Shown one piece after another: positions 31,198 to 61,662 of a stretch of 64,000 bases of DNA. The translations under genes and the position numbers were made by a program. Positions within the stretch are counted from its first letter, which is position 1; the number at the start of each line of letters is the position of its first letter. The DNA comes from a virus (lineage: Duplodnaviria; Heunggongvirae; Uroviricota; Caudoviricetes), in IMG/VR virus record IMGVR_UViG_3300044693_000272. One strand, 5' to 3'. The notes beneath the pieces are model-generated. The model saw only the letters and a list, made by a program, of their open reading frames with translations. It was not told where the DNA came from and made no database searches.

Positions 31198-31213
31198 TTT
31201 TATCTCCTGTTCT

Positions 31214-31464: not shown

Positions 31465-31583
31465 GAACTATTCTCCTGTTGTGTCTACCATGTATCGTAT
31501 TCTGCATTCATATGAATGAATTGTCAACGACCAAATGAATGGTTGGGCCTAGGAATCCTAGGCCCAACCACAGGAGAGCAGCG

Positions 31584-35292: not shown

Positions 35293-35567
35293 CAGTGTTC
35301 ATATCCATACGTTAGTTTGAACTGCAATGCTTCCATCTCATTTTCGAAAAAGTAATACAAACCCGGTGGCACTGGCTGTTCTTCCCACGTATAGGGAGAA
35401 TCTACATTTTCATCCAACCAAGTATATCGCTCGAATACTTCACCAGCCGTTTTGGGCGGACGGCACTGTACTACGAAGTTGATGGGCCATTTGAAATCTT
35501 TAAAATGAAAATGCCAGACCATCCGATCAACATCCGACATTTCAGCAAGCCATGTACTGTATTTCAT
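35292..35567 (-). CDS. C-terminal FKLTWG-motif family member (91 aa)
   Basis: Ends EMEALQFKLTYGYEH. Confidence 0.5.
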   Translation of the reverse strand: MKYSTWLAEMSDVDRMVWHFHFKDFKWPINFVVQCRPPKTAGEVFERYTWLDENVDSPYTWEEQPVPPGLYYFFENEMEALQFKLTYGYEH

Positions 35568-35884
35568 TATTCAACACCGTACATGAGCTTGAACATTGCT
35601 GCATCACCAAGGTCCTCGAAACACCAGATTGCATTTATGCCAGGTGCTGAAGTGACAATAGCACCAAACTGCCCGCTAGTATTATTATCAAGCCATTCAT
35701 CCAAGTCTTTTGTTTTGTAGCCTTTCGAGCGGAAGTTGTCTCGATGAATGTTGGTAAGCACCACGTAGCCATCAGGAACAAACTCGAGATCGTCAACGCC
35801 TCGAATGATTCCTGGCCAAAAGGCGTTCGGGATTTTCGCGTTTTCGAGCACTGCTTCAAGCTTTTGCACTTGACTACGCTTCAT
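35567..35884 (-). CDS. C-terminal FKLTWG-motif family member (105 aa)
   Basis: Ends GDAAMFKLMYGVE. Confidence 0.5.
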   Translation of the reverse strand: MKRSQVQKLEAVLENAKIPNAFWPGIIRGVDDLEFVPDGYVVLTNIHRDNFRSKGYKTKDLDEWLDNNTSGQFGAIVTSAPGINAIWCFEDLGDAAMFKLMYGVE

Positions 35885-36283: not shown

Positions 36284-36634
36284 TCAGCACCAAGTTAGTT
36301 TGAATAAAACAGCATCATGTTCATTCTGGAAACACAGCAACCTTGAAATACCAGAGCCAATCCGTTCTGTTGCTTGCTCGATTCTTAATACTGAAAACCG
36401 ACCACTCATGTTTTGATGAAGCCAATTCATAATTGAGCCATCGAATTTTTTACGTTCAGACATGATTTTTTCAAGATGTTTGAAATTAAAAATAAAAAAT
36501 GCTGTTGGATTATAATCAAACATATTCACTTTTGTTTCAAACAACTTGATAATATGGTCTCGATCGGCTTCTTTCTTTTGGACATCATCCCTAGCATTAT
36601 AATGCTCACTAATAACGTCGTGAAGTGTTTTCAT
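36284..36634 (-). CDS. C-terminal FKLTWG-motif family member (116 aa)
   Basis: Ends HDAVLFKLTWC. Confidence 0.5.
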   Translation of the reverse strand: MKTLHDVISEHYNARDDVQKKEADRDHIIKLFETKVNMFDYNPTAFFIFNFKHLEKIMSERKKFDGSIMNWLHQNMSGRFSVLRIEQATERIGSGISRLLCFQNEHDAVLFKLTWC

Positions 36635-36894
36635 TTTTCTAGCGCCAATTTACAAGCAATTGCATCTGCCATAGATTCAAAATAAATGGCATTACAAAAT
36701 ATTGGTTTAAAATATGCGCCAGCCGTATTTTTAATGAACCACTCTAGGTTCTCGCGCACTAGGGCAGAAGCCGCCACTCCTTTGGTACGCAGCACACAAG
36801 CTGGTGTGAATTTGAGTTTGTTGTAGACGCGACGCCGAACTTCCTGATTTTGCTCAGTAATGAAGTCGTGAACGGTCATGATGATCAATTGCAT
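36631..36894 (-). CDS. divergent C-terminal-motif family member (87 aa)
   Basis: Ends MADAIACKLALEK. Confidence 0.4.
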   Translation of the reverse strand: MQLIIMTVHDFITEQNQEVRRRVYNKLKFTPACVLRTKGVAASALVRENLEWFIKNTAGAYFKPIFCNAIYFESMADAIACKLALEK

Positions 36895-44426: not shown

Positions 44427-44605
44427 GCCAAAGACTGCACATTTGATCTGGAGATCAAAATGACCGGCAACGATAAGTGCAACAGTTTGAATGGTCTGTC
44501 GCGCCGATCACCGACAAACCAGTCAATGCTTTGCTTGCATAACCTTCCATCCTGTCCTCTCAAGTAGTTGCCATATTCATATTGTATCTTCAAATGAATA
44601 TGGAG

Positions 44606-44821
44606 TCAACCAAAAAGCATCACAAAAAACATAATGACGAGAACAACAGCGGAAATCATTGCAATAATTACAATCACCCAAGCACAAATATCAACGCCAT
44701 TAATGCTATGACCCTCAGCAGAGGCATGGCCACCGCCACCATGACCTCCACCTCCGCCACCCCCTCGTGCGAAGGCAACAGTAGCAAACAGCTTCAAAAG
44801 CACAGCAAGAAATCGTTTCAT
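44606..44821 (-). CDS. small Gly/His-rich membrane protein with signal peptide (71 aa)
   Basis: N-terminal signal peptide, GGGGGGGHGGGGH tract, C-terminal TM helix. Confidence 0.45.
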   Translation of the reverse strand: MKRFLAVLLKLFATVAFARGGGGGGGHGGGGHASAEGHSINGVDICAWVIVIIAMISAVVLVIMFFVMLFG

Positions 44822-46831: not shown

Positions 46832-47941
46832 TCATTCACTTGGAGTGACTATCAAACTTTTCTGATTGAACTTTGAATCAACCCAAGAATTGATTCGTTT
46901 ACGTATTGGTGTCTCTACTCGCATATTGAGAATATGTGCTGAGACAATTGATAATGTAATATACAACACAGCAGCAATTACACGTTCAATAGTACCTGTT
47001 GTTATGGCAATAAACGTCGCAAAAGCCATAACTATGGCGGCATGGCTCAAATATAATGAATAAGAAATTCTACCCAAATATTGAGCAAAGCGACTATTGA
47101 GTAAAAGTGTCACTGGTCCGTTATTCATAGTTAGTGTCGCTATGAATAATGCAAACAATAATGGCGCAACACATGCTAAGCCTGGAATGCTATCAGCGAT
47201 TAGAATAAAGAGTAATGTACCGGTAAATATCGCTAATTGTATATTTGGTTTACAAAGACTGATCACAAATCGATGATTGCGATATTCGGCAAGCAGAGCA
47301 CCAATGAAGAAGCCAACTAGACCGCGTCCCCATCCAAAGTAATAGGTTTGTTCAAAACATCCGCCCTTAGTCAAACATGAACTAACAATTATCGACTGCC
47401 ATAAAGCAATCGAATAACCAAAAAGAGCAAATGCGATAAACGCAGCCGTTCTAATTTTTCCATGTAGGGAAATACAGAGTAGTGCGAATATACAGTAGAT
47501 CCAAAATTCAACACTGGCACTCCAACTTACTGCAATACCAATTACATTCGTGATAGCCAAACCTTGAAGAAACGTCGCAACACCTAATAGTTGAATAATG
47601 CTTGGTAATCGATATTCATGAAAGCTTGCGAGATATTGTAAGAAAAAATAAATGAAATTCGCAATCATGAATGCTGGCCACAATCTCCCAATTCGACGCA
47701 ATATAAAAGCACCAAAATCAGAATTATTTCTCAGCTTCGCTTTATATGAATCATATATTACGAAACCACTCAATACGAAGAACAAATCAACAGCCAAATA
47801 ACCGTTCTTTGAAAAAGAAAAGAAACTTGCGGCAGCACGAGAATTCGGTACAGCTTGCAATGACATATAAACATGAAGGAAGACAACAATTAAAGCGGCA
47901 AACCCGCGCAAGCCTTCAAGGCTATGAAGTCGGCCGCCCAT
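46832..47941 (-). CDS. acyltransferase family 3 integral membrane protein (OafA/YrhL-like)
   Basis: LEGLRGFAALIVVFLHV ... FFVLSGFVI plus about 10 TM helices; GAGGAGATGACAT ATG. Confidence 0.65.
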   Translation of the reverse strand: MGGRLHSLEGLRGFAALIVVFLHVYMSLQAVPNSRAAASFFSFSKNGYLAVDLFFVLSGFVIYDSYKAKLRNNSDFGAFILRRIGRLWPAFMIANFIYFFLQYLASFHEYRLPSIIQLLGVATFLQGLAITNVIGIAVSWSASVEFWIYCIFALLCISLHGKIRTAAFIAFALFGYSIALWQSIIVSSCLTKGGCFEQTYYFGWGRGLVGFFIGALLAEYRNHRFVISLCKPNIQLAIFTGTLLFILIADSIPGLACVAPLLFALFIATLTMNNGPVTLLLNSRFAQYLGRISYSLYLSHAAIVMAFATFIAITTGTIERVIAAVLYITLSIVSAHILNMRVETPIRKRINSWVDSKFNQKSLIVTPSE

Positions 47942-49073: not shown

Positions 49074-49334
49074 TTAATTGTACGTAAAGTCGAACAGGAG
49101 AGCATCTCGCACCTCTTCAAAAACCACAACTAACATATTGTCAGTAGGAATGTGATGAGTCCAAAACTTACCTACACACTGCTCAACTAGATTGGCTCTG
49201 AGCTCTTCAATAGTCTGATTGCCCATCAAGACCATAAAATTGCATTCATCTAACGACAAGTTACCAATTGTTGTGGCCATATAGGCTGCACGTTTTGCTA
49301 TTTTGTCTGTTGTATTTTTGCAACTGTATATCAT
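49074..49334 (-). CDS. C-terminal-motif family member (86 aa)
   Basis: Ends VRDALLFDFTYN. Confidence 0.45.
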   Translation of the reverse strand: MIYSCKNTTDKIAKRAAYMATTIGNLSLDECNFMVLMGNQTIEELRANLVEQCVGKFWTHHIPTDNMLVVVFEEVRDALLFDFTYN

Positions 49335-49335
49335 T

Positions 49336-49635
49336 TTATTGGCCGAATGTTAGATAGAACGCCAAAGCATCGTTGTATTTTTCATACATAGTGACAACGA
49401 CCATACCGAACTGTCGCCAGTTCAATTTGATTTTTTGTTCCTTGTGCCAAAGCCTTACAGCCTGATCTCGCTCAGACTTAACGAGACCGTCAGACATGAC
49501 TATATACCCTGACGGTAGTTTGTTAACTTCTTCGAAGTCCGCCCTTAATGACTGGCGAATCACATATTCGACAGCACTGTGCAATTCATCATCTTTCATG
49601 GCGAACCATCTTTCCATTTCACGAATAATAGCCAT
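49336..49635 (-). CDS. C-terminal-motif family member (99 aa)
   Basis: Ends NDALAFYLTFGQ. Confidence 0.5.
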   Translation of the reverse strand: MAIIREMERWFAMKDDELHSAVEYVIRQSLRADFEEVNKLPSGYIVMSDGLVKSERDQAVRLWHKEQKIKLNWRQFGMVVVTMYEKYNDALAFYLTFGQ

Positions 49636-49638
49636 CCC

Positions 49639-49929
49639 TTAACCCCAAGTCAGGAAATAGTTCAGCGCGTCTTGGTAGTTCGAGAATAAACCAAGTACGG
49701 TTGTTTTGAGCAGTATTATTGAATAATCATACTCAATATTGAGCTTTGCCCAACGGCGAGATGCCATTATATTACTATTGGTAATGGCAATGTCTACAGC
49801 ATATAGATACATATGGAATTCAATGGCTTCGCGATCATCAACTATGCGTTGACGAAACAGTTCATGTGAGCCACTTATATGCTCCTCACTGCCATTCTTG
49901 ATCCAATCTTGAACTGTTCGAAGTGGCAT
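49639..49929 (-). CDS. C-terminal-motif family member (about 96 aa)
   Basis: Start at internal MPLRTV; ends QDALNYFLTWG. Confidence 0.45.
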   Translation of the reverse strand: MPLRTVQDWIKNGSEEHISGSHELFRQRIVDDREAIEFHMYLYAVDIAITNSNIMASRRWAKLNIEYDYSIILLKTTVLGLFSNYQDALNYFLTWG

Positions 49930-49930
49930 A

Positions 49931-50203
49931 TCAGCACCACGTAAGGTAGAATGCCAAAGCATTTTTGTAGTCAGTGAAGAAACACATCATCACATTTAGC
50001 TTGCCATCGAGCGTGAAACAACCGTCATATTCATTTTTGACGGTATCGATTATATGTGTAAAGCTGTTTGGCAAATCAAATGTAACAACATATGGATGGT
50101 TCTTCTTTGAAGAGCGATAGTGTTCTATTAATAGATTGGCACGCTTGCCCTGTTCGGGCCCTTCAATATCCAACCATTCTTTTGTTGTTTGTAATTTAGC
50201 CAT
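49931..50203 (-). CDS. C-terminal-motif family member (90 aa)
   Basis: Ends KNALAFYLTWC. Confidence 0.5.
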   Translation of the reverse strand: MAKLQTTKEWLDIEGPEQGKRANLLIEHYRSSKKNHPYVVTFDLPNSFTHIIDTVKNEYDGCFTLDGKLNVMMCFFTDYKNALAFYLTWC

Positions 50204-50213
50204 GCTGACACCA

Positions 50214-50537
50214 TCACACTTTGTCGCCGTGTGTCATGTAAAACTTGATTGCGTCAATTTCGCGTTCGAAAAACACGGCCATAACGCCGCTACCGTTCTT
50301 CGTACGCATTATTGGAAGTTGGTCTCCCTCGCACTCGGATTCAAGCCATTCGCATAGCTCGATCCATGTCCAACGACGTTTGGAATCGAACATGATGATC
50401 ATTGCACACGCGATGTGAAATTCAGCTGATTCGATACCATTCTTGAACCAGCTACCGGCCTCGTGTAAGTCACCGTATAGCTTATCGAGCTTACTCAGCT
50501 CGTTGAAGACGTGTGGTTTGAATATTTGTGCATTCAT
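50214..50537 (-). CDS. C-terminal-motif family member (107 aa)
   Basis: Ends IDAIKFYMTHGDKV. Confidence 0.5.
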   Translation of the reverse strand: MNAQIFKPHVFNELSKLDKLYGDLHEAGSWFKNGIESAEFHIACAMIIMFDSKRRWTWIELCEWLESECEGDQLPIMRTKNGSGVMAVFFEREIDAIKFYMTHGDKV

Positions 50538-50731
50538 TTTGCTGGATATGGGCTAAACCATAACCCCTCATGTTGTTTGTTTAACTTACCAGCCCTGTAC
50601 AATGCTCCCTGTTCGCTATATCCGATGAATGCTTCCTCCGAATTTGGGCTGAGCCATTTTTCACCTGCCTTACCTGTGTAATACAGAGTTTCGCCCTTCT
50701 GATTCTGGACCATAATGCCATGCGTGCTCAT
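50534..50731 (-). CDS. hypothetical protein (65 aa)
   Basis: ATGA-coupled to downstream gene. Confidence 0.45.
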   Translation of the reverse strand: MSTHGIMVQNQKGETLYYTGKAGEKWLSPNSEEAFIGYSEQGALYRAGKLNKQHEGLWFSPYPAK

Positions 50732-50790
50732 GTGATTCTCCGACTTTCGTAGTACAAGAACTCACATGATACGTTCATATGAACCGTAAG

Positions 50791-51066
50791 TCAACCCCAA
50801 GCCAGCAACCAGGCAACCGCATCAGTTTCATGCTGAAAATAAATTGCTGGTGGTATGAAATCTACTGCTGGGTTGAAACCGATCTTCCCCTTCACATTTT
50901 CAGTGCGCCAATCAGGATCCACTTCATAGAAGTGATCGTGTTTATCAGATAGTAATACTGAGCCAGGAAGGAAACGAACATTTCCCATTGTTCGAGACAT
51001 CCAGTTTCGAACTCGATCTTCGCCATATCTGGCTTGGAAGGCTGCGAATGAGAGTAACTGCATCAA
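50791..51066 (-). CDS. C-terminal-motif family member (91 aa)
   Basis: Ends TDAVAWLLAWG. Confidence 0.45.
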   Translation of the reverse strand: MMQLLSFAAFQARYGEDRVRNWMSRTMGNVRFLPGSVLLSDKHDHFYEVDPDWRTENVKGKIGFNPAVDFIPPAIYFQHETDAVAWLLAWG

Positions 51067-51305
51067 TCACCTTTCTTACCAAGTCGTATGACAAAGCGAT
51101 CACCAAACTTTTCAATCTCGAAAGTTTCTCCCTGAAAATAACTTATGTAGTCGGCGGGAACTTCAAGCTTCATTTCGGTTTCATAGACCGAGGTGTACGG
51201 TTGATAACCGTACCGATCATTTTCGGCTGTTGTAATTACTTCGATCTGGGTGTCTTCAGGAAATTGATCCAACCAGCGTTGCAATTCGACTCGAGTAGTC
51301 ATCAT
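51063..51305 (-). CDS. hypothetical protein (80 aa)
   Basis: ATGA-coupled. Confidence 0.45.
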   Translation of the reverse strand: MMTTRVELQRWLDQFPEDTQIEVITTAENDRYGYQPYTSVYETEMKLEVPADYISYFQGETFEIEKFGDRFVIRLGKKGD

Positions 51306-51362
51306 AATCTCCTGAAGTAATCATGCTCATATGGTACGTTCATATGAGCATGATATCAAGAG

Positions 51363-51641
51363 CTATGCGACCAAATGAACCGTAAGATAATCTATAAAGC
51401 TTTTGAAATACACTTGATATGGTCTTCTATCATTAGATCGCTCACAGATCACATCGCCGCGCAATCCTCGATATAAAAGGTGAAAAGCATGGTTATCGAA
51501 CCTAAAACCTTCGCTGAAAGTCAAACGAACAATGACTTCAGGTTTGAAACCATGCTCTAGTTCAAAGTCATGAATCTTCTGTTGACGACCCAGAAAGGCA
51601 AGTGTGGGATCGAGATATTCTTCAAGAGTCCAAGCAATCAT
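51363..51641 (-). CDS. divergent C-terminal-motif family member (92 aa)
   Basis: Ends FIDYLTVHLVA. Confidence 0.4.
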   Translation of the reverse strand: MIAWTLEEYLDPTLAFLGRQQKIHDFELEHGFKPEVIVRLTFSEGFRFDNHAFHLLYRGLRGDVICERSNDRRPYQVYFKSFIDYLTVHLVA

Positions 51642-52150
51642 ACATTCGCCCGATCTGCTAACGCCTGAAGAACAAATGGGTGAATGTATTTTGCCACTTT
51701 TTCTTCCCAGTTGTTAATTCCGACAAACCCTCGCACAGCTGATGAGCTGATACGCGTGATATCTTCGGGAGGAATTACAAAGACATGGTCGATGCTATTT
51801 TCAATATCTGCGTTGAAACCCTGAATATCTTTCTCGTAACCAAAGTCAACAGCATTGCGAATGCCACGCATGATGGTGGTAACACCTAGATGCTTCGCCA
51901 CGCTGACCGTGAATTCATTTTCAATCACTACAAACTTCAACTTTTCGAACAGCTCAGATGTGAGTGAGTCAGCCAACACTCGCCGTGCCAGTTCCTCACG
52001 TTCGATCGAATTGAACATTCCCTTCTTTGCTGGATTGTAAGCAATCGCAAAGTAGACTTCATCGAATGTGCGACAAGCACGCTCGACCATCCATTCATGC
52101 CCTCGTGTGATTGGATCGAACGACCCAGTAACCATACCGATCGTATACAT
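51638..52150 (-). CDS. CoaD-like nucleotidyltransferase (phosphopantetheine adenylyltransferase family)
   Basis: GSFDPITRGHEWMV matches the (H/T)xGH motif GTFDPITNGH; RGIRNAVDFGYE matches RGLRAVADFEYE; start chosen at the ATG that TAATG-overlaps the upstream stop. Confidence 0.6.
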   Translation of the reverse strand: MYTIGMVTGSFDPITRGHEWMVERACRTFDEVYFAIAYNPAKKGMFNSIEREELARRVLADSLTSELFEKLKFVVIENEFTVSVAKHLGVTTIMRGIRNAVDFGYEKDIQGFNADIENSIDHVFVIPPEDITRISSSAVRGFVGINNWEEKVAKYIHPFVLQALADRANV

Positions 52151-53385
52151 TAGACCCAACGCTCCCATTTCTTGATAAGTGTGTCCAAGTTTGCACGTGC
52201 ATTATCTTCGAGATGTGCAAAGTGCGATGATTGAAAAACTTTTGGTCGACGCAAAAATGTCTTCAATACAGAAACCCGGCCTCTAGCAAATGTTCGAATT
52301 TCATACTCATTTTTGAACTCCTGATATACTGCGTCATCAAATGCTTCAGCCTCCTCGGGAGTTCCACCCAACATCATCAAGTCCACATCAAGAAACAATT
52401 CACAATCGTTTTTCAACTTAGGATTGGCTTTCAAGAAATGCGAAGAAGCCGAATGCGTTTTCGTACTCATGATGTATTCAGCAGCAACTGCGAGTGATGG
52501 GATACCATCTTCAATTTCAAATCGCAATGCTTCTGGCATAATTGCTTTGAATTGATCAATCATGAACTTAACGCTTTGAGATTCATTATGTGGATACAGA
52601 GTCTTATACGTACTGTATACCACATCATGATAGATAATCGCAATACCGGCAATGCTAGGATAGTTGAATTTGTCAAGATTCGACATAAACCATCGATACA
52701 TAGCAAGTGGGTGATCTGCATTATGCCAGTGCCGATCAAAACCGTGATATTGTTTCATCGCATTGTCGAACAATTCACCAGCTTCCTTTTCTTTTTTGTA
52801 AAAAGCGCTTTGGAAGAATAAACGTAGATCTTTTCGAGCAATGTTACCAGCAATGCGTTTAGCTTCAGTTTCAAGCTCTTCAAGCGAAACATTAGTGTCA
52901 ATTGTTTCATCCGACATTGCCGACTTCACAATAGTACTGAGTTGCGCACCACGAATCTTTGCGATTTTTTCGGCAGTGAAGCCATCACGTGCAATCACAC
53001 GTTTTTCTTGCGTCTCATCGTCGCACATACACGTGATGATGAAATCGTATTTGTCATTATTGCACATTTCAAACAACAGAGGAAATTCAACTACGATGTG
53101 ATTCTGACTGTCGATTTTTATCATTCGCAACCGCATGTGCGTTTTCACCAAATCTTCAAGCCATTTACGTTGCTCTGGGTCGTTGAATACGATATCCGAT
53201 ATTTGCTTGCGATCATCCGTTCCGAATTGTTCCTTCAGTTCTTTAGCAAATTCGGTGTTCTTATAAAGCTCGTGAACCATCTCATCGATGCTTGCTTGAG
53301 TGTAATTTGGTGTAAGATGTTTCACCAATAGTTTCGTGAATGTGGATTTTCCACAGCCAATGTTACCGGTAATCGCGATCCGCAT
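52150..53385 (-). CDS. two-domain protein: N-terminal CoaE-like P-loop kinase and C-terminal HD-domain phosphohydrolase
   Basis: MRIAITGNIGCGKSTF is a Walker A as in dephospho-CoA kinase (LTGGIGSGKST); C-terminal RHWHNADH ... IIYHDVVYS ... DVDLMMLG carries the HD-domain His/Asp pattern. Confidence 0.55.
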   Translation of the reverse strand: MRIAITGNIGCGKSTFTKLLVKHLTPNYTQASIDEMVHELYKNTEFAKELKEQFGTDDRKQISDIVFNDPEQRKWLEDLVKTHMRLRMIKIDSQNHIVVEFPLLFEMCNNDKYDFIITCMCDDETQEKRVIARDGFTAEKIAKIRGAQLSTIVKSAMSDETIDTNVSLEELETEAKRIAGNIARKDLRLFFQSAFYKKEKEAGELFDNAMKQYHGFDRHWHNADHPLAMYRWFMSNLDKFNYPSIAGIAIIYHDVVYSTYKTLYPHNESQSVKFMIDQFKAIMPEALRFEIEDGIPSLAVAAEYIMSTKTHSASSHFLKANPKLKNDCELFLDVDLMMLGGTPEEAEAFDDAVYQEFKNEYEIRTFARGRVSVLKTFLRRPKVFQSSHFAHLEDNARANLDTLIKKWERWV

Positions 53386-53483
53386 TGATGCTCCTTTATT
53401 CGTTTTTGATGATCAAGCTACCATAAGCCATTCATTTATTCATTGTATGACAAATCATACCAAATGTAAAGCCGCCAAATGGC

Positions 53484-53510
53484 AGATGGCCCCATATGGG
53501 GCCATCTTTT
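53484..53510. terminator. hairpin of the GATGGCC family after the ligase-like gene
   Basis: agatggcccc-atat-ggggccatct then TTTTAC. Confidence 0.45.
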
Positions 53511-53515
53511 ACAGC

Positions 53516-54085
53516 TTAGTACGGAAAGTCAGCTTTCTTGATTTTCACAAGGCGACCATCTTCGTGATGCCAAACAATGCCTTCGATAGGCTTGTCTCGC
53601 AACCATTCTTTGATGCCATCAAACGTGCGCGGGCAATCTTCTAAGATATCCTTACCGTGAGGAACAAGAATGTGTTCGGTCAAACCTTCAGGATTAGCAC
53701 CGTGACGTGTCCCAATTTTGGGACCACACGCTTCATATGTGCCATCAGGGATTCCACCGGCAAACTTGTTCTTCTGCGCCCATTCGACAGCTTCTCGAAT
53801 GTACTTCGATTCCGGGCCTTCAGCGGGAACCCAACCAGGCCAGTGCCCGCTTTTCGGATCAGGGTTAGGTTGGGCAGGAATGAAGTCAACGGGAGGTGTT
53901 CTCCCAGTCTTAGCGTCGTAACGCTTAAAGACTTGACCATCCTTTACCAACACAGCCACGCCATCCCATTTACGAGTAGCGTAACCTTCACCCTGAACAA
54001 CCCATTCAGCACCCGGAGTAACTTCGTCACGAACCTTACGATCCCCTTCGTAGTTACGTTGAAACAACGACATGATTTTCTTCAT
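53516..54085 (-). CDS. minimal covalent nucleotidyltransferase (ATP-dependent RNA/DNA ligase-like)
   Basis: Start trimmed to MKKIMSLFQ (AAGGAGCAGTTC ATG); ATRKWDGVAVLVKDG is motif I (KxDG), EGIVWHHEDGRLVKIKK resembles motifs IV/V. Confidence 0.55.
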   Translation of the reverse strand: MKKIMSLFQRNYEGDRKVRDEVTPGAEWVVQGEGYATRKWDGVAVLVKDGQVFKRYDAKTGRTPPVDFIPAQPNPDPKSGHWPGWVPAEGPESKYIREAVEWAQKNKFAGGIPDGTYEACGPKIGTRHGANPEGLTEHILVPHGKDILEDCPRTFDGIKEWLRDKPIEGIVWHHEDGRLVKIKKADFPY

Positions 54086-54136
54086 GAACTGCTCCTTAAA
54101 AGTGATGAGATAGTTTTCGAGTCCCATCAACGCCAC

Positions 54137-54200
54137 CTTAAGGTTTACTGCAACTACTAAGCCATATTGTATTGCAAGTACACTATGGCGTCAAACACTT
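54137..54200 (-). promoter_or_regulatory. sigma70-like promoter variant: -35 TTGACG, 17 nt, -10 TACAAT, upstream of the ligase-like gene
   Basis: Reverse complement of 54140-54185 reads TTGACGccatagtgtacttgcaaTACAAT. Confidence 0.4.
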
Positions 54201-54206
54201 TTGCGC

Positions 54207-54524
54207 TTATTCTCCTGCCTTCTTAACAGACCAGAGGTTCTTCGAATTTCCCCTTACCCACATACGGTTACCATCTGTGCAATCGATCACCACTTCATAC
54301 GCGTAATCATGCGTATGGTGAGCCCTGACAAAAGCAACCACCCCTTCTTTGACGACCTTATTGGAAGCCTTATATCGCACTGTGCAGCCAGCAGAATAAC
54401 CGGAAAGCTCGGCGTGTCCTTGGGCGTAAGCTTCACGCAGTTCACCGCGCCGTTGCTCCAGATCTCGGATCTGTTGGTTAACTGCATTCAGTTCATCATC
54501 AATTGCGCCAAGTTCTTGCCGGTT
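54207..54524 (-). CDS. hypothetical protein (about 105 aa; start MNRQELG)
   Basis: Promoter-motif artefact trimmed; probable coiled coil. Confidence 0.5.
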   Translation of the reverse strand, partial: NRQELGAIDDELNAVNQQIRDLEQRRGELREAYAQGHAELSGYSAGCTVRYKASNKVVKEGVVAFVRAHHTHDYAYEVVIDCTDGNRMWVRGNSKNLWSVKKAGE

Positions 54525-54546
54525 CATACTAGACTCCGTGTTTGTT

Positions 54547-54598
54547 TTACCATGTTCAGATGGTACATTCACCTGAACATGGTTACAAGCACTTTTTA
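54547..54598 (-). promoter_or_regulatory. conserved promoter/operator element: -35 TTGTAA (54583-54588), -10 TACCAT (54560-54565)
   Basis: 10-bp inverted repeat CCATGTTCAG ... CTGAACATGG brackets the -10 hexamer. Confidence 0.5.
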
Positions 54599-55066
54599 GC
54601 ACTTGACCTCGAATGATGCACCGTACTGCACAACCACAAACGTGACACGAACAGAAGTGCGCGTTTCTGCCTCCTTCTCCGTTTCCGCATCGCCGATGAA
54701 GTCGATAGCAACGTTCACACCAATTCCCGCGAGACGTTTGATTGCCGAGAAATTGATGTCGAAATCATCGAAGCCATGCACTTGCGATTGTGGCACGATG
54801 TATTGGCGCATACGCAGCAGAAGTTCGTCGATTTCTTCTTTGCTGTAGAGCTTTCCGAACGCCTTTTCGGAATCCAGGAAAACATGGTTGAACATCGAAC
54901 AAAAAGGAGCGTCAGGCAAGACTTCCTTGTATGCTTGGCAAAGCTGGCGAATGAGCTCGTCGTTCTCGGACAAATAGCTGAGCACCGTGCAGAGATTATC
55001 GAAAGTCTCGATACCCAGTGCGGCTTCGAACTGATCTTTGGTTGCGTTGATGTCGGCGATACGCAT
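54596..55066 (-). CDS. hypothetical protein (about 156 aa; start MRIADINA)
   Basis: CAGGAGCAAACAA ATG. Confidence 0.5.
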   Translation of the reverse strand: MRIADINATKDQFEAALGIETFDNLCTVLSYLSENDELIRQLCQAYKEVLPDAPFCSMFNHVFLDSEKAFGKLYSKEEIDELLLRMRQYIVPQSQVHGFDDFDINFSAIKRLAGIGVNVAIDFIGDAETEKEAETRTSVRVTFVVVQYGASFEVKC

Positions 55067-55181: not shown

Positions 55182-55679
55182 TTACGCAGCAGCCTTATCG
55201 GCCTTTGCCGCCTTCTTGGCTGCCTTTTCGGCTGCCGCAGCGGCAGCCGCCACCGAAGCTTGCGTCGGGAACGCGAACACCTTCTTCGGGTTCGGTGCCT
55301 TGTACTTCGGAGCTTGCGGCTTCGTCGAACGCGTGTTCAGCTTGCCGTTGCCCATCGCCTTGTAGAACATCTTGCCGAGGTTTGCTTCAAAATCGGCACC
55401 GAGCGTTTCGACCTGAGCCGCAGCATCGAGATCCTTATACGCAAAACCCTTGTCCTTGCCCGTCAGCTTTTTCGCGTAAAATGCGAGTACGCTTTCGAGT
55501 GCATCTTTCTTGTATGTCTTGAAACGCAGCATGCCACCACGGCGGCCACCGAACGTCACGAGGTTGCCTTGTACCTTTGCCACACCGAACACGCTGTCCT
55601 TCGACGGAGCACCACCGTTATCACCACGCTTGCCAGCGATCAGTGCATGACCAACACGCAGAATTTCGACCTTTGCCAT
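55182..55679 (-). CDS. WGR-domain protein with Ala/Lys-rich tail (165 aa)
   Basis: MAKVEILRVGH ... LVTFGGRRGGMLRFKTYKKDALESVLAFYAKKLTGKDKGFAY; tail AAAAAAEKAAKKAAKADKAAA; AGAGGAGATTACAA ATG. Confidence 0.6.
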   Translation of the reverse strand: MAKVEILRVGHALIAGKRGDNGGAPSKDSVFGVAKVQGNLVTFGGRRGGMLRFKTYKKDALESVLAFYAKKLTGKDKGFAYKDLDAAAQVETLGADFEANLGKMFYKAMGNGKLNTRSTKPQAPKYKAPNPKKVFAFPTQASVAAAAAAAEKAAKKAAKADKAAA

Positions 55680-56165: not shown

Positions 56166-56492
56166 CTATTCATATTCGTTACCAAACCTGAAGTAGAATG
56201 CAAGTGCGTCTGAATGATGTTTGAAGAAGTAATAGCCCATAGCACTCACCGCAGTATATCCTAAGCGTGCATGGGGATATTGCTTTACCACTTTATGCTG
56301 AACATTGTCTAGCAGCCACTCGAACATGGTATAAACCGCAGCGTTCTTTGTCACATCGTTGCCCGTGATAGACACCAGATAAAAGGGGACTTCGTCAAGG
56401 GTATTGATGCGCTGGCGTACTGCTTTCTTGATGTCTTTGTCGAACTGGTTCAAAAACGCTTCGACATCAGTTATTTCGACAATGCTAGACAA
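56166..56492 (-). CDS. C-terminal-motif family member (108 aa)
   Basis: Ends SDALAFYFRFGNEYE. Confidence 0.5.
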   Translation of the reverse strand: MSSIVEITDVEAFLNQFDKDIKKAVRQRINTLDEVPFYLVSITGNDVTKNAAVYTMFEWLLDNVQHKVVKQYPHARLGYTAVSAMGYYFFKHHSDALAFYFRFGNEYE

Positions 56493-56775
56493 AGCGATCT
56501 CCCCACGTTAGGTAAAACTGCATAGCATCGACGTGGCTTTGAAAGAAAAACATGCCAACGGCAATGTCGGAAACATAGTCGTCCTTTGTATTTTCTTTCA
56601 ACCAAGATATTACTTCATCTTGATTGCTTGTCGTCCAATTTCTTATATCCAGATCAACAAGATATATTGGTTTCTTAAACGAACGCAAGCTTGCTTTGAT
56701 GACTCCCCTTTCAACATAAAATGTTGAAAGGAATGTATTTAGCGAACCTTCGTCGAGCTCTTCAATAACACTCAT
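56485..56775 (-). CDS. C-terminal-motif family member (96 aa)
   Basis: Ends VDAMQFYLTWGDRFV. Confidence 0.5.
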   Translation of the reverse strand: MSVIEELDEGSLNTFLSTFYVERGVIKASLRSFKKPIYLVDLDIRNWTTSNQDEVISWLKENTKDDYVSDIAVGMFFFQSHVDAMQFYLTWGDRFV

Positions 56776-58030: not shown

Positions 58031-58447
58031 TCAAGCGTTTTTGTCTTTTGCTGCTCTACGTTTGGCTGCGCGTTCAGTTGCTTCATGGGAAGTTTTGGCA
58101 GTATGACATGGTTCGCATAGCGTCTGCAAGTTTGGTAGTCGCCAGTAGTCCAAGTTTCCTTGAGCTTCCACGAGTGGTTTGATGTGATCCATGTGCCAAG
58201 GATTCTGGTAACGGTCGCACTTGGCACCACATTGATTACACTTTGCTCGATCGCGTTTGTACACTGCGCGACGGGTAGTGGCGGGCCAGAACAACAGTTT
58301 GTATTCAGCTAGACAGGCAGGATGCCAGCGTGATTTGCTTTGCTTGCCCTTAGGCGTTAGACCAACTTCTTGATTGCACCAACGACAAGTGCCTTCTGGC
58401 ACTGTATCGAAATATGGTGGCTTTGGAGGTGTACGGTGAGCACCCAT
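58031..58447 (-). CDS. HNH endonuclease
   Basis: CRWC ... HMDHIKP ... NLQTLCEPCHTAKT. Confidence 0.6.
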   Translation of the reverse strand: MGAHRTPPKPPYFDTVPEGTCRWCNQEVGLTPKGKQSKSRWHPACLAEYKLLFWPATTRRAVYKRDRAKCNQCGAKCDRYQNPWHMDHIKPLVEAQGNLDYWRLPNLQTLCEPCHTAKTSHEATERAAKRRAAKDKNA

Positions 58448-58494: not shown

Positions 58495-58863
58495 TTAGCC
58501 TGCGTGACGTGTAACGAAATTAATTCGAGTACGTTGTGGAGCAAAATACTTGTTAACCATGTCGATCACTGTTTGCTGATCATATTCTCGACAGGAAAAT
58601 ACGTCGAAGTAAGCAGTGCCATCGAGGTCCATAAAATGCCCGCAAATGTTGGAGGTCGTGATGAGCTGCATCAGGCTATAGCCCTGCTTTGGATCGCCTG
58701 GCAACAGATATTCGATGATAGGCTCGCCGTGCGCTTCCATATCGATAGCGACGACTAGTTCCTTGATGAAGTTGTAGATTGCTTCCTTGCTACCAATGCC
58801 ACCGTCAACTTTACAACCTGCACAGTCCAGCATGAGGTGATAACCCCAGAATTTGTTATCCAT
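58495..58863 (-). CDS. S-adenosylmethionine decarboxylase-like protein (SpeH/SpeD class 1 fold)
   Basis: WGYHLMLDCAGC ... EAHGEPII ... LITTSNICGHFMD ... YFDVFSC parallels bacterial AdoMetDC (G.HL..ELYGC ... LLAESHITIHTWPE ... IDIFTCG); the Glu-Ser cleavage pair is Thr-Ser here. Confidence 0.5.
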   Translation of the reverse strand: MDNKFWGYHLMLDCAGCKVDGGIGSKEAIYNFIKELVVAIDMEAHGEPIIEYLLPGDPKQGYSLMQLITTSNICGHFMDLDGTAYFDVFSCREYDQQTVIDMVNKYFAPQRTRINFVTRHAG

Positions 58864-59506: not shown

Positions 59507-60271
59507 TCAATGCTGGCGATACGTAAGGTTATTGTAAATCTCGTTATCGCAGATGTCTTCGCCTACATTGCGAAACACATAGACATTTCTACCCGAAAAG
59601 AACATTTCCATAGCTATGTCATCTACACGTGGATGTACGATAGCACCGTTAGGCGTGAGGAATGGGTTAAGAATGAAGTCCCAATCATTATGTCCCCAAT
59701 GCTTAAGGTGGGTAATATCGCCAGGAGTATCATTCAATCCTTCACGCAATACATAGTTGATTCTAATTTTGGAGAACGATGCGTAATGCATGGATACGGA
59801 TTCCAAAATCCGATAAATCGGATCAGATTTTGGAATCATCTTATCACGAATCGACTGATTAAAAGTGTGCATCGACACCTGTAACTCAGCAGGGAAAGTG
59901 GTAGTATCAAGAAAACGTATCCGGCGGGATGCAACCCCACTTATCGAATAACGAACTGATGTGATCGGTATGCTAAGAGTGTAGAGGGTTGATAAAGCAT
60001 TGCTCACATTCTCGGTGTTAAAGAGAACATCACCCTCGCCAGTAAATGAAAGAACAAATGGGTGATTTGGTGCATTTTTGACCACCAAATCAACAATCTC
60101 ATCAGCAGTGAGATTACGAACAAATTTATTGGTAGTTGATACGCAAAATGAACAACCGACCGGACAACCAATCTGCGTTGGAACACTTAGGACATTTTTA
60201 TTACCAGCACTGACATTCAGTACTGGCACGCTGATGTCTTTGATTGGTATGTGCCGAAGATAAACGCTCAC
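59507..60271 (-). CDS. radical SAM domain protein (254 aa), GTG start
   Basis: GCPVGCSFC is the CxxxCxxC cluster motif; SFTGEGDVLF is a glycine-rich SAM-binding segment; the start is GTG 3 nt after the upstream stop. Confidence 0.55.
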   Translation of the reverse strand: MSVYLRHIPIKDISVPVLNVSAGNKNVLSVPTQIGCPVGCSFCVSTTNKFVRNLTADEIVDLVVKNAPNHPFVLSFTGEGDVLFNTENVSNALSTLYTLSIPITSVRYSISGVASRRIRFLDTTTFPAELQVSMHTFNQSIRDKMIPKSDPIYRILESVSMHYASFSKIRINYVLREGLNDTPGDITHLKHWGHNDWDFILNPFLTPNGAIVHPRVDDIAMEMFFSGRNVYVFRNVGEDICDNEIYNNLTYRQH

Positions 60272-60866: not shown

Positions 60867-61235
60867 TTATTCAAAAAGTAAAATCGTCTGAGTTGCCACC
60901 AACATAGCAGCAAGTAATGGGTGGTGCGCGCAAAACAACATCAAATATGTTTCCACTAATGTGAAAGCTAAATGGAATAAAAAATCAATTGGTGTGGCCG
61001 GAGCAAAAGAAATATCAGGCTGTTCACCATTACTTGCTGCCCAACGCAAATAGTAATTACGAGCAATGACACCAATAATCGTAATGCCCAGCATAGTTAT
61101 TACCAGCCAAACCCATACTACCTCGGCCCAGGCGATATCCAAGCCCAACCACATAATTGGAAGTGCAATGTGCGCAGTCCATATGATCCTGGTCAATGCG
61201 GTAGTTTTTTCGTTGATTTCAGACATTGAATACAT
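60867..61235 (-). CDS. integral membrane protein (122 aa)
   Basis: Four hydrophobic helices. Confidence 0.5.
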   Translation of the reverse strand: MYSMSEINEKTTALTRIIWTAHIALPIMWLGLDIAWAEVVWVWLVITMLGITIIGVIARNYYLRWAASNGEQPDISFAPATPIDFLFHLAFTLVETYLMLFCAHHPLLAAMLVATQTILLFE

Positions 61236-61662
61236 ACTCCATTTTACCAGGTCGGTATAAACCTTTTTCCACCTTACTCAAGATGAAGTCGAAATGATTA
61301 ATGAATGCTCGACTATACATATGAAACATTTCTTCGGCAACAGTACAACTTGGTTTGTCATTATCAAGTAGCTTCAACATCCGCTCAATCAAATGCAATC
61401 CTGTTCCTTTATTTTGATATTCAGGTAAAACTCGAACACACCGCAGCTTTGTTTCTTCAGCTGTCTGCTTGCCTAGAGCAACACCAATCACCCTACCATT
61501 ATCCTTTGATAACAACATAATGTCATTGCCTGTAACCAGGCCTGGCATCATCTGGTTGATATACCAGTATTCAAAGTCAGGGTAAAGTTGATCCAATCCT
61601 TTCAACAACGGAAGCACACTAAATGCTTCAACAAAGGACTTTGAATTGTGATACTCAATCAT
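61219..61662 (-). CDS. GNAT family N-acetyltransferase
   Basis: VRVLPEYQNKGTGLHLIERM matches GNAT motif A (V.P.YQ.KGIG..L). Confidence 0.5.
   Translation of the reverse strand: MIEYHNSKSFVEAFSVLPLLKGLDQLYPDFEYWYINQMMPGLVTGNDIMLLSKDNGRVIGVALGKQTAEETKLRCVRVLPEYQNKGTGLHLIERMLKLLDNDKPSCTVAEEMFHMYSRAFINHFDFILSKVEKGLYRPGKMEYVFNV

What the first reader, a model, noticed from the sequence alone, without database searches (positions are those of the whole stretch)
51638..54085. Contiguous nucleotidyltransferase, kinase-HD fusion and minimal ligase: CoA salvage or RNA-repair cassette?
Three adjacent, translationally coupled genes are present. The first is a CoaD-like (H/T)xGH nucleotidyltransferase with the CoaD-specific RG.R..DF.YE motif. 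The second is a 411-aa fusion of a CoaE-like P-loop kinase with an HD phosphohydrolase domain. The third is a minimal KxDG covalent nucleotidyltransferase (ligase or capping-type motifs I, IV, V). Read at face value, the first two give the last two steps of coenzyme A synthesis, which is unusual cargo for a phage. Alternatively, kinase plus HD phosphoesterase plus ligase, with the Tpt1 at 29044-29592 and the phage tRNAs, is the composition of an RNA healing and sealing pathway used by phages to counter anticodon nucleases.
Basis: partly seen in the sequence, partly recalled or inferred. Interest (0 to 1): 0.7.

Follow-up and report, generated by a model that had tools for sequence, protein, structure and literature searches.

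The report
Phage coenzyme A module plus ligase
A roughly 520-kb phage carries the enzymes for the last two steps of coenzyme A synthesis as a coupled gene pair fused to an uncharacterised phosphodiesterase-like domain, while the RNA ligase gene next door is a separate, already known kind of gene.

Summary
All three genes are real and lie on the minus strand at the stated coordinates.

- **CoaD (51638-52150).** It scores above NCBI's curated cut-off for pantetheine-phosphate adenylyltransferase and keeps every catalytic residue I checked.
- **CoaE-HD fusion (52150-53385).** The N-terminal half is a dephospho-CoA kinase, also above the cut-off, with a P-loop and the catalytic Asp. The C-terminal half is an intact HD-superfamily domain with no Pfam model. 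Its predicted fold is closest to class I cyclic-nucleotide phosphodiesterases.
- **Ligase (53516-54085).** It belongs to the RLIG1 (C12orf29) family of 5'-P/3'-OH RNA ligases.

Only the kinase fusion and CoaD are translationally coupled (TAATG overlap). The ligase is separated from them by a strong hairpin and has its own promoter.

In every related locus examined, the fusion sits next to a CoaD gene. The three domains also recur in other arrangements:
- CoaE plus a CoaD-HD fusion in CPR bacteria.
- A separate HD gene plus a CoaD-CoaE fusion in a viral contig.

The ligase travels alone in other phages.

Best reading: a two-step CoA salvage module with an accessory phosphoesterase of unknown substrate, next to an unrelated RNA ligase. 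The idea that the kinase-HD protein is an RNA end-healing enzyme is not supported.

The parts
54166..54194 (-). Sigma-70-like promoter (TTGACG-17-TACAAT) upstream of the RNA ligase gene
   Evidence: Scores 10 of 12 in the promoter scan. One of 3 window-wide matches to TTKAC-N18-TACAAT against 0.04 expected.
53516..54085 (-). RLIG1-family 5'-P/3'-OH RNA ligase, 189 aa. A neighbour of the CoA module, not part of it.
   Evidence: phrog_14301 1e-86 over the full length. PF17720 scores 41.4 bits against a cut-off of 25. PDB 9c6l aligns with K39 on the catalytic K73. The AF2 model (pLDDT 90.7) has significant Foldseek hits only to 9c6l/9c6m, TM 0.78. K39, D41, G42, E118, E168, G169 and K181 are invariant and K183 is nearly invariant.
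53484..53507 (-). G+C-rich hairpin directly after the ligase stop codon. It resembles a terminator but lacks a clean U tract.
   Evidence: RNA fold -26.3 kcal/mol, z -3.77, and none of 200 shuffles folds as well. Sequence read.
53442..53470 (-). Sigma-70-like promoter (TTTACA-17-TACAAT) upstream of the CoaE-HD gene
   Evidence: Scores 10 of 12. The motif is enriched in the window.
52846..53385 (-). Dephospho-CoA kinase (CoaE) domain, residues 1 to about 180 of the 411-aa fusion
   Evidence: TIGR00152 scores 89 bits against a cut-off of 65.55, and PF01121 scores 85.5 against 27. All 13 PDB sequence hits are DPCKs. D34 aligns with the second Asp of the DxD motif, which I recall to be the catalytic base. 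The P-loop residues G12, K13, T15 and D34 are invariant in 21 fusions and S14 is nearly so.
52150..52800 (-). HD-superfamily phosphoesterase domain, residues about 196-411 of the fusion. It belongs to the 'predicted metal-dependent HD superfamily phosphohydrolase' family, which has no Pfam model. The range includes the stop codon.
51638..52150 (-). Pantetheine-phosphate adenylyltransferase (CoaD), 170 aa from the ATG that overlaps the fusion's TAA. An alternative ATG lies at 52168.
   Evidence: TIGR01510 scores 132.8 bits against a cut-off of 103.3. Of 35 PDB hits, 34 are PPATs, with NadR the weakest at E 7e-4. G9, D12, T15, G17, H18, K42, R95, G96, R98, E106, N113 and S135-137 are invariant with E. 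coli CoaD and seven partner genes. The JGI gene call on the 99%-identical contig uses the same start.
51363..51641 (-). 92-aa ORF of unknown function, coupled to CoaD by an ATGA overlap. Its membership of the module is uncertain.
   Evidence: The overlap was read. It has no Pfam match. A 92-aa gene is called at the same place on the 99%-identical contig.

Best explanation
The unit is a two-gene operon with its own promoter: CoaE-HD followed by CoaD. It supplies the last two steps of coenzyme A synthesis.

1. CoaD adenylylates 4'-phosphopantetheine with ATP to give dephospho-CoA.
2. The CoaE domain phosphorylates the adenosine 3'-OH of dephospho-CoA to give CoA.

The pair would let the phage turn the host's 4'-phosphopantetheine into CoA independently of the host's feedback-controlled enzymes. 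This parallels the known CoA salvage from 4'-phosphopantetheine by animal COASY.

The fused HD domain is an intact metal-dependent phosphoesterase with a phosphodiesterase-like fold, and it belongs to the same pathway. Its substrate is unknown. My two guesses, both inference only, are:
- It frees 4'-phosphopantetheine from a phosphodiester-linked carrier such as holo-ACP. That would be an analogue of AcpH, not a homologue.
- It acts on the 3'-phosphoadenosine moiety of CoA or 3',5'-ADP as a counter-activity or clean-up activity to the kinase, much as the HD hydrolase and the synthetase oppose each other in RelA/SpoT.

The adjacent RLIG1-type RNA ligase is an independent gene. It probably seals broken RNA that carries 5'-phosphate and 3'-OH ends.

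What is shown: family membership, residue conservation, gene coupling and the conserved three-domain linkage. What is inferred: the enzyme activities, the role of the HD domain and the benefit to the phage.
For: **Family membership.**
- CoaD and CoaE pass NCBI's curated equivalog cut-offs.
- Their solved-structure relatives are PPATs and DPCKs almost exclusively.
- Catalytic and substrate-binding residues are kept.

**Gene organisation.**
- A TAATG overlap couples the fusion to CoaD.
- The fusion has its own promoter.

**Conserved linkage.**
- In all 8 loci carrying a homologue of the fusion at 32-64% identity, a CoaD gene lies directly beside it.
- The same holds on IMG/VR contigs of 524 kb and 292 kb.
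- The three domains also recur in other arrangements:
  - CoaE plus a CoaD-HD fusion in five CPR bacterial MAGs.
  - A separate HD gene plus a CoaD-CoaE fusion on a 112-kb viral contig.
  - CoaD beside HD in a Limisphaerales MAG.
  - CoaE plus CoaD without HD on two viral contigs of more than 350 kb and in a DPANN archaeon.
- Among the proteins collected, 60 are CoaE-HD and 3 are CoaD-HD.
- The HD domains of CoaD-HD fusions are nearer to stand-alone HDs than to those of CoaE-HD fusions. The fusions therefore arose more than once.

**HD domain.** It keeps the H...HD...D metal ligands and folds like a phosphodiesterase.

**Possible demand for CoA.** The window also encodes two acetyl-CoA-type acyltransferases: Acyl_transf_3 at 46832-47941 and a GNAT at 61219-61662.
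Against: - No activity has been measured.
- The HD family has no characterised member, no Pfam model and no close solved structure. The best Foldseek E-value is 0.03.
- It shows no detectable homology to E. coli AcpH (hhalign probability 0.3%). The guess that it releases 4'-phosphopantetheine therefore rests on chemistry alone.
- Stand-alone HD homologues in Alphaproteobacteria have no CoA-related neighbours in the two loci examined.
- Several related loci carry RNA-repair-type genes (RNA ligase PF09414, metallophosphoesterase, RtcB, AlkB, an HD-Pnk-like gene) within 3-8 kb of the module. A link to RNA metabolism is therefore not excluded.
- I found no published reason why a phage would need extra CoA, and no CoA-depleting defence system in the searchable literature.
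Confidence: 0.7

Rival explanations
1. RNA healing-and-sealing cassette. The P-loop kinase phosphorylates 5'-OH RNA ends. The HD domain removes 2',3'-cyclic or 3'-phosphates. The RLIG1 ligase then seals the ends, helped by Tpt1, to undo damage by anticodon nucleases.
For: - The ligase is a true RLIG1-family RNA ligase that needs 5'-P and 3'-OH ends. PMC11494293 reports that several bacterial and viral homologues ligated tRNA halves.
- It lies 130 nt upstream of the fusion, both here and in the 64%-identical relative.
- The HD domain has a phosphodiesterase-like fold.
- From my own knowledge, HD-kinase end-healing enzymes exist (Runella HD-Pnk).
- Tpt1 and tRNA genes are in the window.
- RNA-repair genes lie within a few kb of the module in L004, L007 and L009.
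Against: - The kinase scores as CoaE above the equivalog cut-off and only 17.6 bits on the tRNA-ligase kinase model, below its 22.7 cut-off.
- All its PDB relatives are DPCKs.
- The constant partner is a full CoaD, which has no role in end healing.
- The ligase has its own promoter and a hairpin after its stop codon.
- The ligase is found without the module in four other phages. Outside the closest relative, the module is found without RLIG1.
- L009 carries a separate HD+AAA_33 gene with the real HD-Pnk architecture.
- The same three domains occur in CPR bacteria. There, by inference, they are most simply housekeeping CoA enzymes.
Confidence: 0.07
2. The pair has taken on a new function. The CoaD-like and CoaE-like enzymes and the HD domain would make or destroy a different adenosine-containing small molecule. 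Examples are a CoA-like cofactor, a dephospho-CoA RNA cap precursor or an immune signalling nucleotide. In the last case the HD domain would act as a cyclic-nucleotide phosphodiesterase against host defence signals.
For: - The phage proteins are only about 25-35% identical to cellular CoaD and CoaE.
- The module sits in an accessory region full of unknown genes.
Against: - Both enzymes pass curated equivalog thresholds and keep the residues I recall as contacting 4'-phosphopantetheine in E. coli PPAT, K42 and N106.
- The HD domain has Tyr where, from memory, the class I PDE signature has its second His after HD. PDEase_I gives no Pfam match.
- The three-domain set is shared with CPR bacteria and, without HD, with a DPANN archaeon. 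An anti-defence role makes little sense there.
Confidence: 0.12
3. Chance neighbours with no current function: cargo genes recently picked up from a cell and now decaying.
For: No near-identical DNA exists in the cultured phage collection.
Against: - The ORFs are intact and all catalytic residues are kept.
- The arrangement is held between phages whose fusion proteins are only 64% identical, and down to 32% identity in other contigs.
- Translational coupling and a consensus-like promoter are present.
Confidence: 0.03

Closest known systems
Bacterial CoaD (PPAT, TIGR01510) and CoaE (DPCK, TIGR00152), the last two steps of CoA biosynthesis
   Same: Both phage proteins pass the curated family cut-offs. 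They keep the TxGH His, K42, RGxR, N106 and SSS in CoaD, and the P-loop and catalytic Asp in CoaE. Their solved relatives are PPATs and DPCKs.
   Different: To my knowledge, coaD and coaE are usually unlinked in bacteria and neither carries an HD domain. Here they are translationally coupled, phage-borne, and the kinase is fused to an uncharacterised HD domain.
Animal COASY, a bifunctional PPAT-DPCK that salvages CoA from 4'-phosphopantetheine (from my own knowledge)
   Same: It provides the same two activities as one unit and makes CoA from 4'-phosphopantetheine without the upstream pathway. A CoaD-CoaE fusion in the same domain order occurs on viral contig L097.
   Different: COASY has no HD domain. 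The phage version splits the activities differently, as CoaE-HD plus CoaD.
Phage NAD+ salvage and reconstitution genes (NadV/NatV, NARP pathways; from my own knowledge and the review PMC7824862)
   Same: Large phages carry the terminal steps of a cofactor pathway, including a HIGH-motif nucleotidyltransferase.
   Different: The cofactor is different. A CoA-depleting host defence that would parallel NAD+ depletion is not known. The jumbo-phage review does not mention CoA, pantetheine, CoaD or CoaE at all.
RLIG1 / C12orf29 RNA ligases (PF17720; Yasminevirus structure 9c6l; PMC11494293)
   Same: The ligase shares the fold (TM 0.78), the catalytic Lys position and the conserved Glu and Lys motifs. 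PMC11494293 reports that several bacterial and viral homologues it tested ligated tRNA halves, and it cloned a 'C. phage' homologue.
   Different: It is shorter, at 189 aa against 277 for the Yasminevirus protein and, from memory, about 325 for the human one. Pfam matches only its C-terminal third. It is 24% identical to the solved protein.
Class I 3',5'-cyclic nucleotide phosphodiesterases (best structural match of the HD domain)
   Different: Identity is 11-18%. There is no PDEase_I Pfam match. The domain is about 100 residues smaller than PDE catalytic domains. The second His of the PDE signature is Tyr here.
Runella slithyformis HD-Pnk and T4 Pnkp RNA end-healing enzymes (from my own knowledge)
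   Same: A P-loop kinase and a phosphoesterase in one polypeptide, next to a ligase gene.
   Different: The domain order is reversed. The kinase belongs to the CoaE family, not the Pnk/AAA_33 family. The conserved partner is CoaD rather than a ligase.

Membership tests
CoaD / pantetheine-phosphate adenylyltransferase (TIGR01510) | Whole-protein score above the curated equivalog cut-off | tested here: met
   132.8 bits against a cut-off of 103.3. NadD/NMNAT models score 25 bits or less, far below their cut-offs.
CoaD / pantetheine-phosphate adenylyltransferase (TIGR01510) | (T/H)xGH motif with the catalytic His, plus K42, RGxR (R88/R91), E99, N106 and the ISSS motif (E. coli numbering, recalled from the PPAT literature) | tested here: met
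   All are invariant in the alignment with E. coli CoaD and seven partner genes of fusion homologues.
CoaD / pantetheine-phosphate adenylyltransferase (TIGR01510) | Adenylyl transfer from ATP to 4'-phosphopantetheine | not testable with these tools
   Needs an enzyme assay or complementation of a coaD mutant.
CoaE / dephospho-CoA kinase (TIGR00152, PF01121) | Score above the curated cut-offs | tested here: met
   TIGR00152 scores 89 bits against 65.55. PF01121 scores 85.5 against 27 over residues 3-169.
CoaE / dephospho-CoA kinase (TIGR00152, PF01121) | P-loop GxxGxGK[ST] and the Asp that activates the 3'-OH (second Asp of DxD; its role is recalled from the H. influenzae structure) | tested here: met
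   The P-loop is GNIGCGKST. D34 aligns with the second Asp in the Aquifex and Thermus DPCK structures and is invariant in 21 fusions. The first Asp of DxD is not kept.
CoaE / dephospho-CoA kinase (TIGR00152, PF01121) | Phosphorylation of dephospho-CoA | not testable with these tools
   Needs an enzyme assay.
HD superfamily metal-dependent phosphohydrolases | H...HD...D metal-binding residues on an all-helical fold | tested here: met
Class I cyclic-nucleotide phosphodiesterase (PF00233) | Match to the sequence family, including the signature HD[LIVMFY]xHx[AG]xx[NQ] (recalled from PROSITE) | tested here: not met
   No PDEase_I match at E<0.1. The sequence after HD is VVYSTYKT, with Tyr in place of His. 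Only the fold is similar.
AcpH acyl carrier protein phosphodiesterase (PF04336) | Detectable sequence homology to E. coli AcpH | tested here: not met
   hhalign of the 42-sequence HD profile against E. coli AcpH gives probability 0.3%. There is no Pfam match. A functional analogy remains possible but is untested.
Polynucleotide kinase-phosphatase / HD-Pnk RNA end-healing enzymes | Kinase domain of the Pnk / tRNA-ligase kinase / AAA_33 type | tested here: not met
   PF08303 scores 17.6 bits against a cut-off of 22.7, in the P-loop region only. There is no AAA_33 match, and all PDB relatives are DPCKs.
Polynucleotide kinase-phosphatase / HD-Pnk RNA end-healing enzymes | Conserved operon link to a polynucleotide ligase | tested here: not met
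   RLIG1 is adjacent only in the window and its 64% relative. Eight of eight loci have CoaD instead. The ligase has its own promoter and a hairpin after its stop codon.
RLIG1 / C12orf29 RNA ligase (PF17720) | Family score above the cut-off and the RLIG1 fold | tested here: met
   PF17720 scores 41.4 bits against 25, matching residues 124-184 only. phrog_14301 matches the full length at 1e-86. Foldseek hits 9c6l at E 4.5e-10, TM 0.78, the only significant PDB family.
RLIG1 / C12orf29 RNA ligase (PF17720) | Catalytic Lys of KxDG that is adenylylated | tested here: met
   K39 aligns with K73 of Yasminevirus RLIG1, the residue mutated in 9c6m. It is invariant in 12 homologues down to 42% identity.
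RLIG1 / C12orf29 RNA ligase (PF17720) | ATP-dependent joining of 5'-P and 3'-OH RNA ends | not testable with these tools
   PMC11494293 reports this activity for several bacterial and viral homologues. It was not measured for this protein.

The most novel reading that the evidence does not exclude
The uncharacterised HD family ('predicted metal-dependent HD superfamily phosphohydrolase', about 2600 representative clusters) is a missing enzyme of CoA salvage or turnover. One candidate activity is a phosphodiesterase that strips 4'-phosphopantetheine from holo-carrier proteins. Another is a 3'-phosphoesterase acting on CoA or 3',5'-ADP. Huge phages would use a CoaE-HD plus CoaD module to re-route the host's phosphopantetheine pool into CoA during infection. 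That would make CoA a second cofactor, after NAD+, that phages rebuild for themselves.
Probability: 0.2. Interest if true: 0.75.

Novelty: new variant of a known kind. Interest (0 to 1): 0.55.

Why it matters
CoA-synthesis genes are not recognised phage cargo. A broad review of jumbo-phage genomes does not mention them, and my literature searches found nothing relevant.

The comparative pattern found here makes a concrete, testable prediction. The same three domains are joined in at least three different ways, in huge phages and in CPR bacteria, through independent fusions. This predicts that a widespread uncharacterised HD/phosphodiesterase-like family works in CoA metabolism.

If confirmed, three things would follow:
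- A large protein family would gain a function.
- It could explain how genome-reduced CPR bacteria, which are thought to lack most biosynthetic pathways, obtain CoA.
- CoA would join NAD+ among the cofactors that phages rebuild or boost during infection.

The RNA ligase itself is ordinary. It belongs to a family described in 2023-2024.

Tried and rejected
**Searches that found nothing useful**
- A near-identity DNA search of 51000-55000 against cultured phages found nothing.
- The afdb50 fold library was unavailable. I could not obtain UniProt-annotated structural neighbours.
- Pfam scans of ten relatives of the HD domain gave no HD-family name. Seven stand-alone proteins had no meaningful match, and three larger fusions matched only through their other domains. 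Cluster look-ups gave only 'predicted metal-dependent HD superfamily phosphohydrolase'. A literature search for COG4339 returned nothing.
- The contexts of two stand-alone HD genes, in Sphingomonas and Brevundimonas, were uninformative. So were the neighbours of the CPR module, which are TrmB-type regulators, SIMPL and mannitol dehydrogenase.
- Literature searches for a CoA-depleting anti-phage system, for CoaE in RNA repair and for DPCK in CPR bacteria found nothing relevant. The Burroughs and Aravind 2016 RNA-repair paper is not held.
- Scans of 30 further window ORFs found no polynucleotide kinase, RtcB or other end-healing enzyme. Only 64 kb of a roughly 520-kb genome is in view.

**Ideas rejected**
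- AcpH homology: rejected by hhalign, probability 0.3%.
- NadD/NMNAT identity for the nucleotidyltransferase: rejected on scores.
- Pnk/Clp1 identity for the kinase: rejected on scores.


Full report
**1. What is in the sequence**

The region holds three minus-strand genes (sequence). In order of transcription they are:

- A 189-aa ligase-like gene at 54085-53516. Its ATG is preceded by AAGGAG.
- A 411-aa gene at 53385-52150.
- A CoaD-like gene that ends at 51638.

The stop codon of the 411-aa gene overlaps an ATG of the CoaD-like gene (TAATG, ATG at 52150-52148). This gives a 170-aa product that begins MYTIGM, as its homologues do. It is also the start called on a 99%-identical metagenomic contig. 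The upstream ATG at 52168 has no better support. CoaD's stop in turn overlaps the ATG of a 92-aa ORF at 51641-51363.

The ligase is not coupled to the other two. A 130-nt spacer separates it from the 411-aa gene. The spacer holds a 10-bp G+C-rich hairpin (-26.3 kcal/mol, z -3.8) and a TTTACA-17-TACAAT site. A TTGACG-17-TACAAT site precedes the ligase. These two are the best promoter-like sites on that strand in the region. The motif TTKAC-N18-TACAAT occurs three times in the 64-kb window, always on the minus strand, against 0.04 expected.

**2. What the proteins are**

*The nucleotidyltransferase.* It scores 132.8 bits on TIGR01510, the pantetheine-phosphate adenylyltransferase equivalog model, whose cut-off is 103.3. 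NadD and NMNAT models score 25 bits or less. Of its 35 PDB sequence relatives, 34 are PPATs. It shares these residues with E. coli CoaD and with seven partner genes from other loci: G9, D12, T15, G17, H18, K42, R95, G96, R98, E106, N113 and S135-137. In E. coli numbering these correspond to the TxGH His, K42, the RGxR arginines, E99, N106 and the SSS motif.

*The N-terminal half of the 411-aa protein.* It scores 89 bits on TIGR00152, the dephospho-CoA kinase model, whose cut-off is 65.55. It scores 85.5 bits on PF01121. The tRNA-ligase kinase model reaches only 17.6 bits, below its cut-off of 22.7. All 13 PDB relatives are dephospho-CoA kinases. D34 aligns with the second Asp of the DxD motif in the Aquifex and Thermus enzymes, and I recall that residue to be the catalytic base. 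D34 and the P-loop residues G12, K13 and T15 are invariant in 21 homologous fusions, and S14 is nearly so.

*The C-terminal half (residues about 196-411).* It has no Pfam match and no PDB sequence relative. It matches phrog_19425, annotated 'phosphohydrolase'. It keeps an invariant H221-x3-H225 ... H253-D254 ... N267-E268 ... H311 ... D333-x-D335 pattern.

The family is large. It has 2595 representative clusters at E<=1e-3. Most are stand-alone proteins of about 200 aa that JGI calls 'predicted metal-dependent HD superfamily phosphohydrolase', and Alphaproteobacteria are among the named sources. I found no characterised member.

*The ligase.* It matches phrog_14301 ('RNA ligase', 1e-86, full length) and PF17720 RLIG1. 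Its K39 aligns with K73 of Yasminevirus RLIG1, the residue mutated in PDB 9c6m. An AlphaFold model (pLDDT 90.7) has significant PDB matches only to that protein, with TM 0.78. K39, D41, G42, E118, E168, G169 and K181 are invariant across homologues down to 42% identity, and K183 is nearly invariant. RLIG1 enzymes join 5'-phosphate and 3'-OH RNA ends, and several bacterial and viral homologues ligated tRNA halves in vitro (PMC11494293). The family is abundant and well conserved: 1516 hits, and the 120 best listed are about 190-aa proteins at 63-86% identity, apart from one 99% match.

**3. Which genes belong together**

Homologues of the whole fusion exist at 32-64% identity. I looked at eight loci that carry one. 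In every one a CoaD-type gene lies directly beside it: downstream in seven and upstream in one. Two IMG/VR contigs, of 524 kb and 292 kb, show the same arrangement.

I built HMMs for the three domains and scanned all fetched loci. The same three parts recur in other arrangements:

- CoaE followed by a CoaD-HD fusion in five CPR bacterial MAGs (Patescibacteria, Paceibacterota, Saccharibacteria).
- A stand-alone HD gene followed by a CoaD-CoaE fusion on a 112-kb viral contig. Pfam confirms the fusion.
- CoaD beside HD in a Limisphaerales MAG.
- CoaE beside CoaD without HD on two viral contigs of more than 350 kb and in a DPANN archaeon.

Among the proteins collected, 60 are CoaE-HD and 3 are CoaD-HD. 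The HD domains of the CoaD-HD fusions are closer to stand-alone HDs than to those of the CoaE-HD fusions. The link to CoA enzymes therefore arose more than once. Repeated independent fusion and adjacency is strong evidence that the HD domain works in the same pathway as CoaD and CoaE.

The ligase behaves differently. RLIG1 lies next to the module only in the window and in its 64%-identical relative. In Ralstonia phage RP12, Burkholderia phage FLC9, mycobacteriophage Paola and Cellulophaga phage phi10:1, the ligase stands among unrelated genes.

**4. How it most likely works**

The simplest account is a two-step CoA salvage operon. CoaD makes dephospho-CoA from 4'-phosphopantetheine and ATP, and the CoaE domain makes CoA. 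The family assignments and the linkage are shown. The activities are inferred.

The same two-step route from 4'-phosphopantetheine is what animal COASY does (my own knowledge). By inference, it would also suit genome-reduced CPR bacteria.

For the phage, the benefit may be a supply of CoA that escapes host feedback control. The window also encodes two acyltransferases of acetyl-CoA-using types: Acyl_transf_3 at 46832-47941 and a GNAT at 61219-61662. That link is circumstantial.

The role of the HD domain is open. Its intact metal site and its phosphodiesterase-like fold suggest one of two activities:

- Release of 4'-phosphopantetheine from a phosphodiester-linked carrier such as holo-ACP. E. 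coli AcpH does this and, to my recollection, is an HD-family enzyme. The two show no detectable homology, however (hhalign probability 0.3%).
- Cleavage at the adenosine 3'-phosphate of CoA or 3',5'-ADP. This would oppose or tidy up after the kinase, as the HD hydrolase opposes the synthetase in RelA/SpoT proteins.

Both are guesses.

**5. The rival reading: an RNA repair cassette**

It has some appeal. The ligase needs healed ends. A P-loop kinase fused to a phosphoesterase recalls HD-Pnk and T4 Pnkp. Tpt1 (29044-29661) and two tRNA genes are present. Several related loci carry RNA ligase, metallophosphoesterase, RtcB or AlkB genes a few kb from the module.

The tests that bear on it go the other way:

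- The kinase is a CoaE, not a Pnk.
- Its constant partner is a complete CoaD.
- The ligase is a separate transcription unit and travels alone.
- One related contig, L009, has a separate HD+AAA_33 gene with the true HD-Pnk architecture.

I give this reading about 7%. A new function on some other adenosine-containing molecule, or an anti-signalling role for the HD domain, gets about 12%.

**6. Novelty**

- The CoaD and CoaE assignments are ordinary enzymology.
- The ligase belongs to a family described in 2023-2024.
- The less ordinary part is the packaging: a coupled CoA module in huge phages, and an uncharacterised HD family tied to CoA enzymes by several independent fusions.
- A wide review of jumbo-phage genomes never mentions CoA, pantetheine, CoaD or CoaE. 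My other literature searches found nothing on the subject. The held library is incomplete, so prior description cannot be excluded.

I rate the finding a new variant of a known kind, of moderate interest. It is a good target for a simple biochemical test.

**7. Limits**

- Only 64 kb of a roughly 520-kb genome is visible, so an end-healing enzyme may lie elsewhere.
- The host is unknown.
- Some related contigs (L004, L005) carry efflux-pump genes and may be cellular rather than viral.
- All functional statements rest on homology and gene context.

Noticed in passing
window 49074-51066 and 56166-56775 (weaker copies at 35295-35570 and 36287-36649): A family of at least 8 small paralogous proteins (86-108 aa) ends in a shared motif like DALxFYLTWG. 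The copies lie in tandem on the minus strand on both sides of the CoA/ligase genes. Members also occur beside the module in the 64% relative (L002/L093) and in L010, where the module is followed by about 27 consecutive small genes. Function unknown, no Pfam match.
   Followed up: partly
window 3660-4559 and 58495-58863: There are polyamine-type genes: an arginase/agmatinase-family protein (PF00491, 2e-56) and an S-adenosylmethionine decarboxylase (PF02675, 1.5e-16). The related phage locus L002 also has an AdoMet decarboxylase.
   Followed up: no
window 46832-47941 and 61219-61662: Two acyltransferases of families that typically use acetyl-CoA: a membrane Acyl_transf_3 protein (1e-27) and a GNAT (2e-6). 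They may create a demand for CoA, but the link is circumstantial.
   Followed up: no
window 44581-44609, 53442-53470, 54166-54194 (minus strand): The promoter-like motif TTKAC-N18-TACAAT occurs three times, always on the coding strand, against 0.04 expected. This suggests a set of genes read by a host-type sigma-70 polymerase.
   Followed up: partly
window 29044-29661: A Tpt1/KptA RNA 2'-phosphotransferase is confirmed (PF01885, 7e-43). It lies 22 kb from the ligase, and the larger neighbouring ORFs I scanned (27023-27700, 30100-31239) had no informative match.
   Followed up: partly
window 20502-20694: tRNA-Pro(TGG) and tRNA-Val(TAC) lie side by side on the minus strand. They are the only tRNA genes in the window.
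   Followed up: no
window 55182-55679: A 165-aa ORF ends in an Ala/Lys-rich tail (AAAAAAEKAAKKAAKADKAAA) that recalls histone H1-like DNA-binding tails. No Pfam match.
   Followed up: no
window 58031-58447 and 59507-60271: An HNH endonuclease (9e-10) and a radical SAM protein (7.5e-8) flank the AdoMet decarboxylase gene.
   Followed up: no
window 30001-32000: G+C rises to 0.556 here against about 0.44 elsewhere in the window. The 379-aa ORF at 30100-31239 has no Pfam or PHROG match.
   Followed up: no
L009 14108-15373; L004 13415-17218; L007 15539-17750: Related contigs that carry the CoA module also carry RNA-repair-type genes a few kb away. These are an HD+AAA_33 (HD-Pnk-like) protein; RNA ligase PF09414 with an R2K ATP-grasp protein, a metallophosphoesterase and RtcB; and RNA ligase PF09414 with a metallophosphoesterase.
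   Followed up: partly
protein P0130 (598 aa): In this protein the same HD domain is fused at the N-terminus to a tetrapyrrole-methylase-type domain and a second methyltransferase domain. This architecture has nothing to do with CoA enzymes.
   Followed up: no
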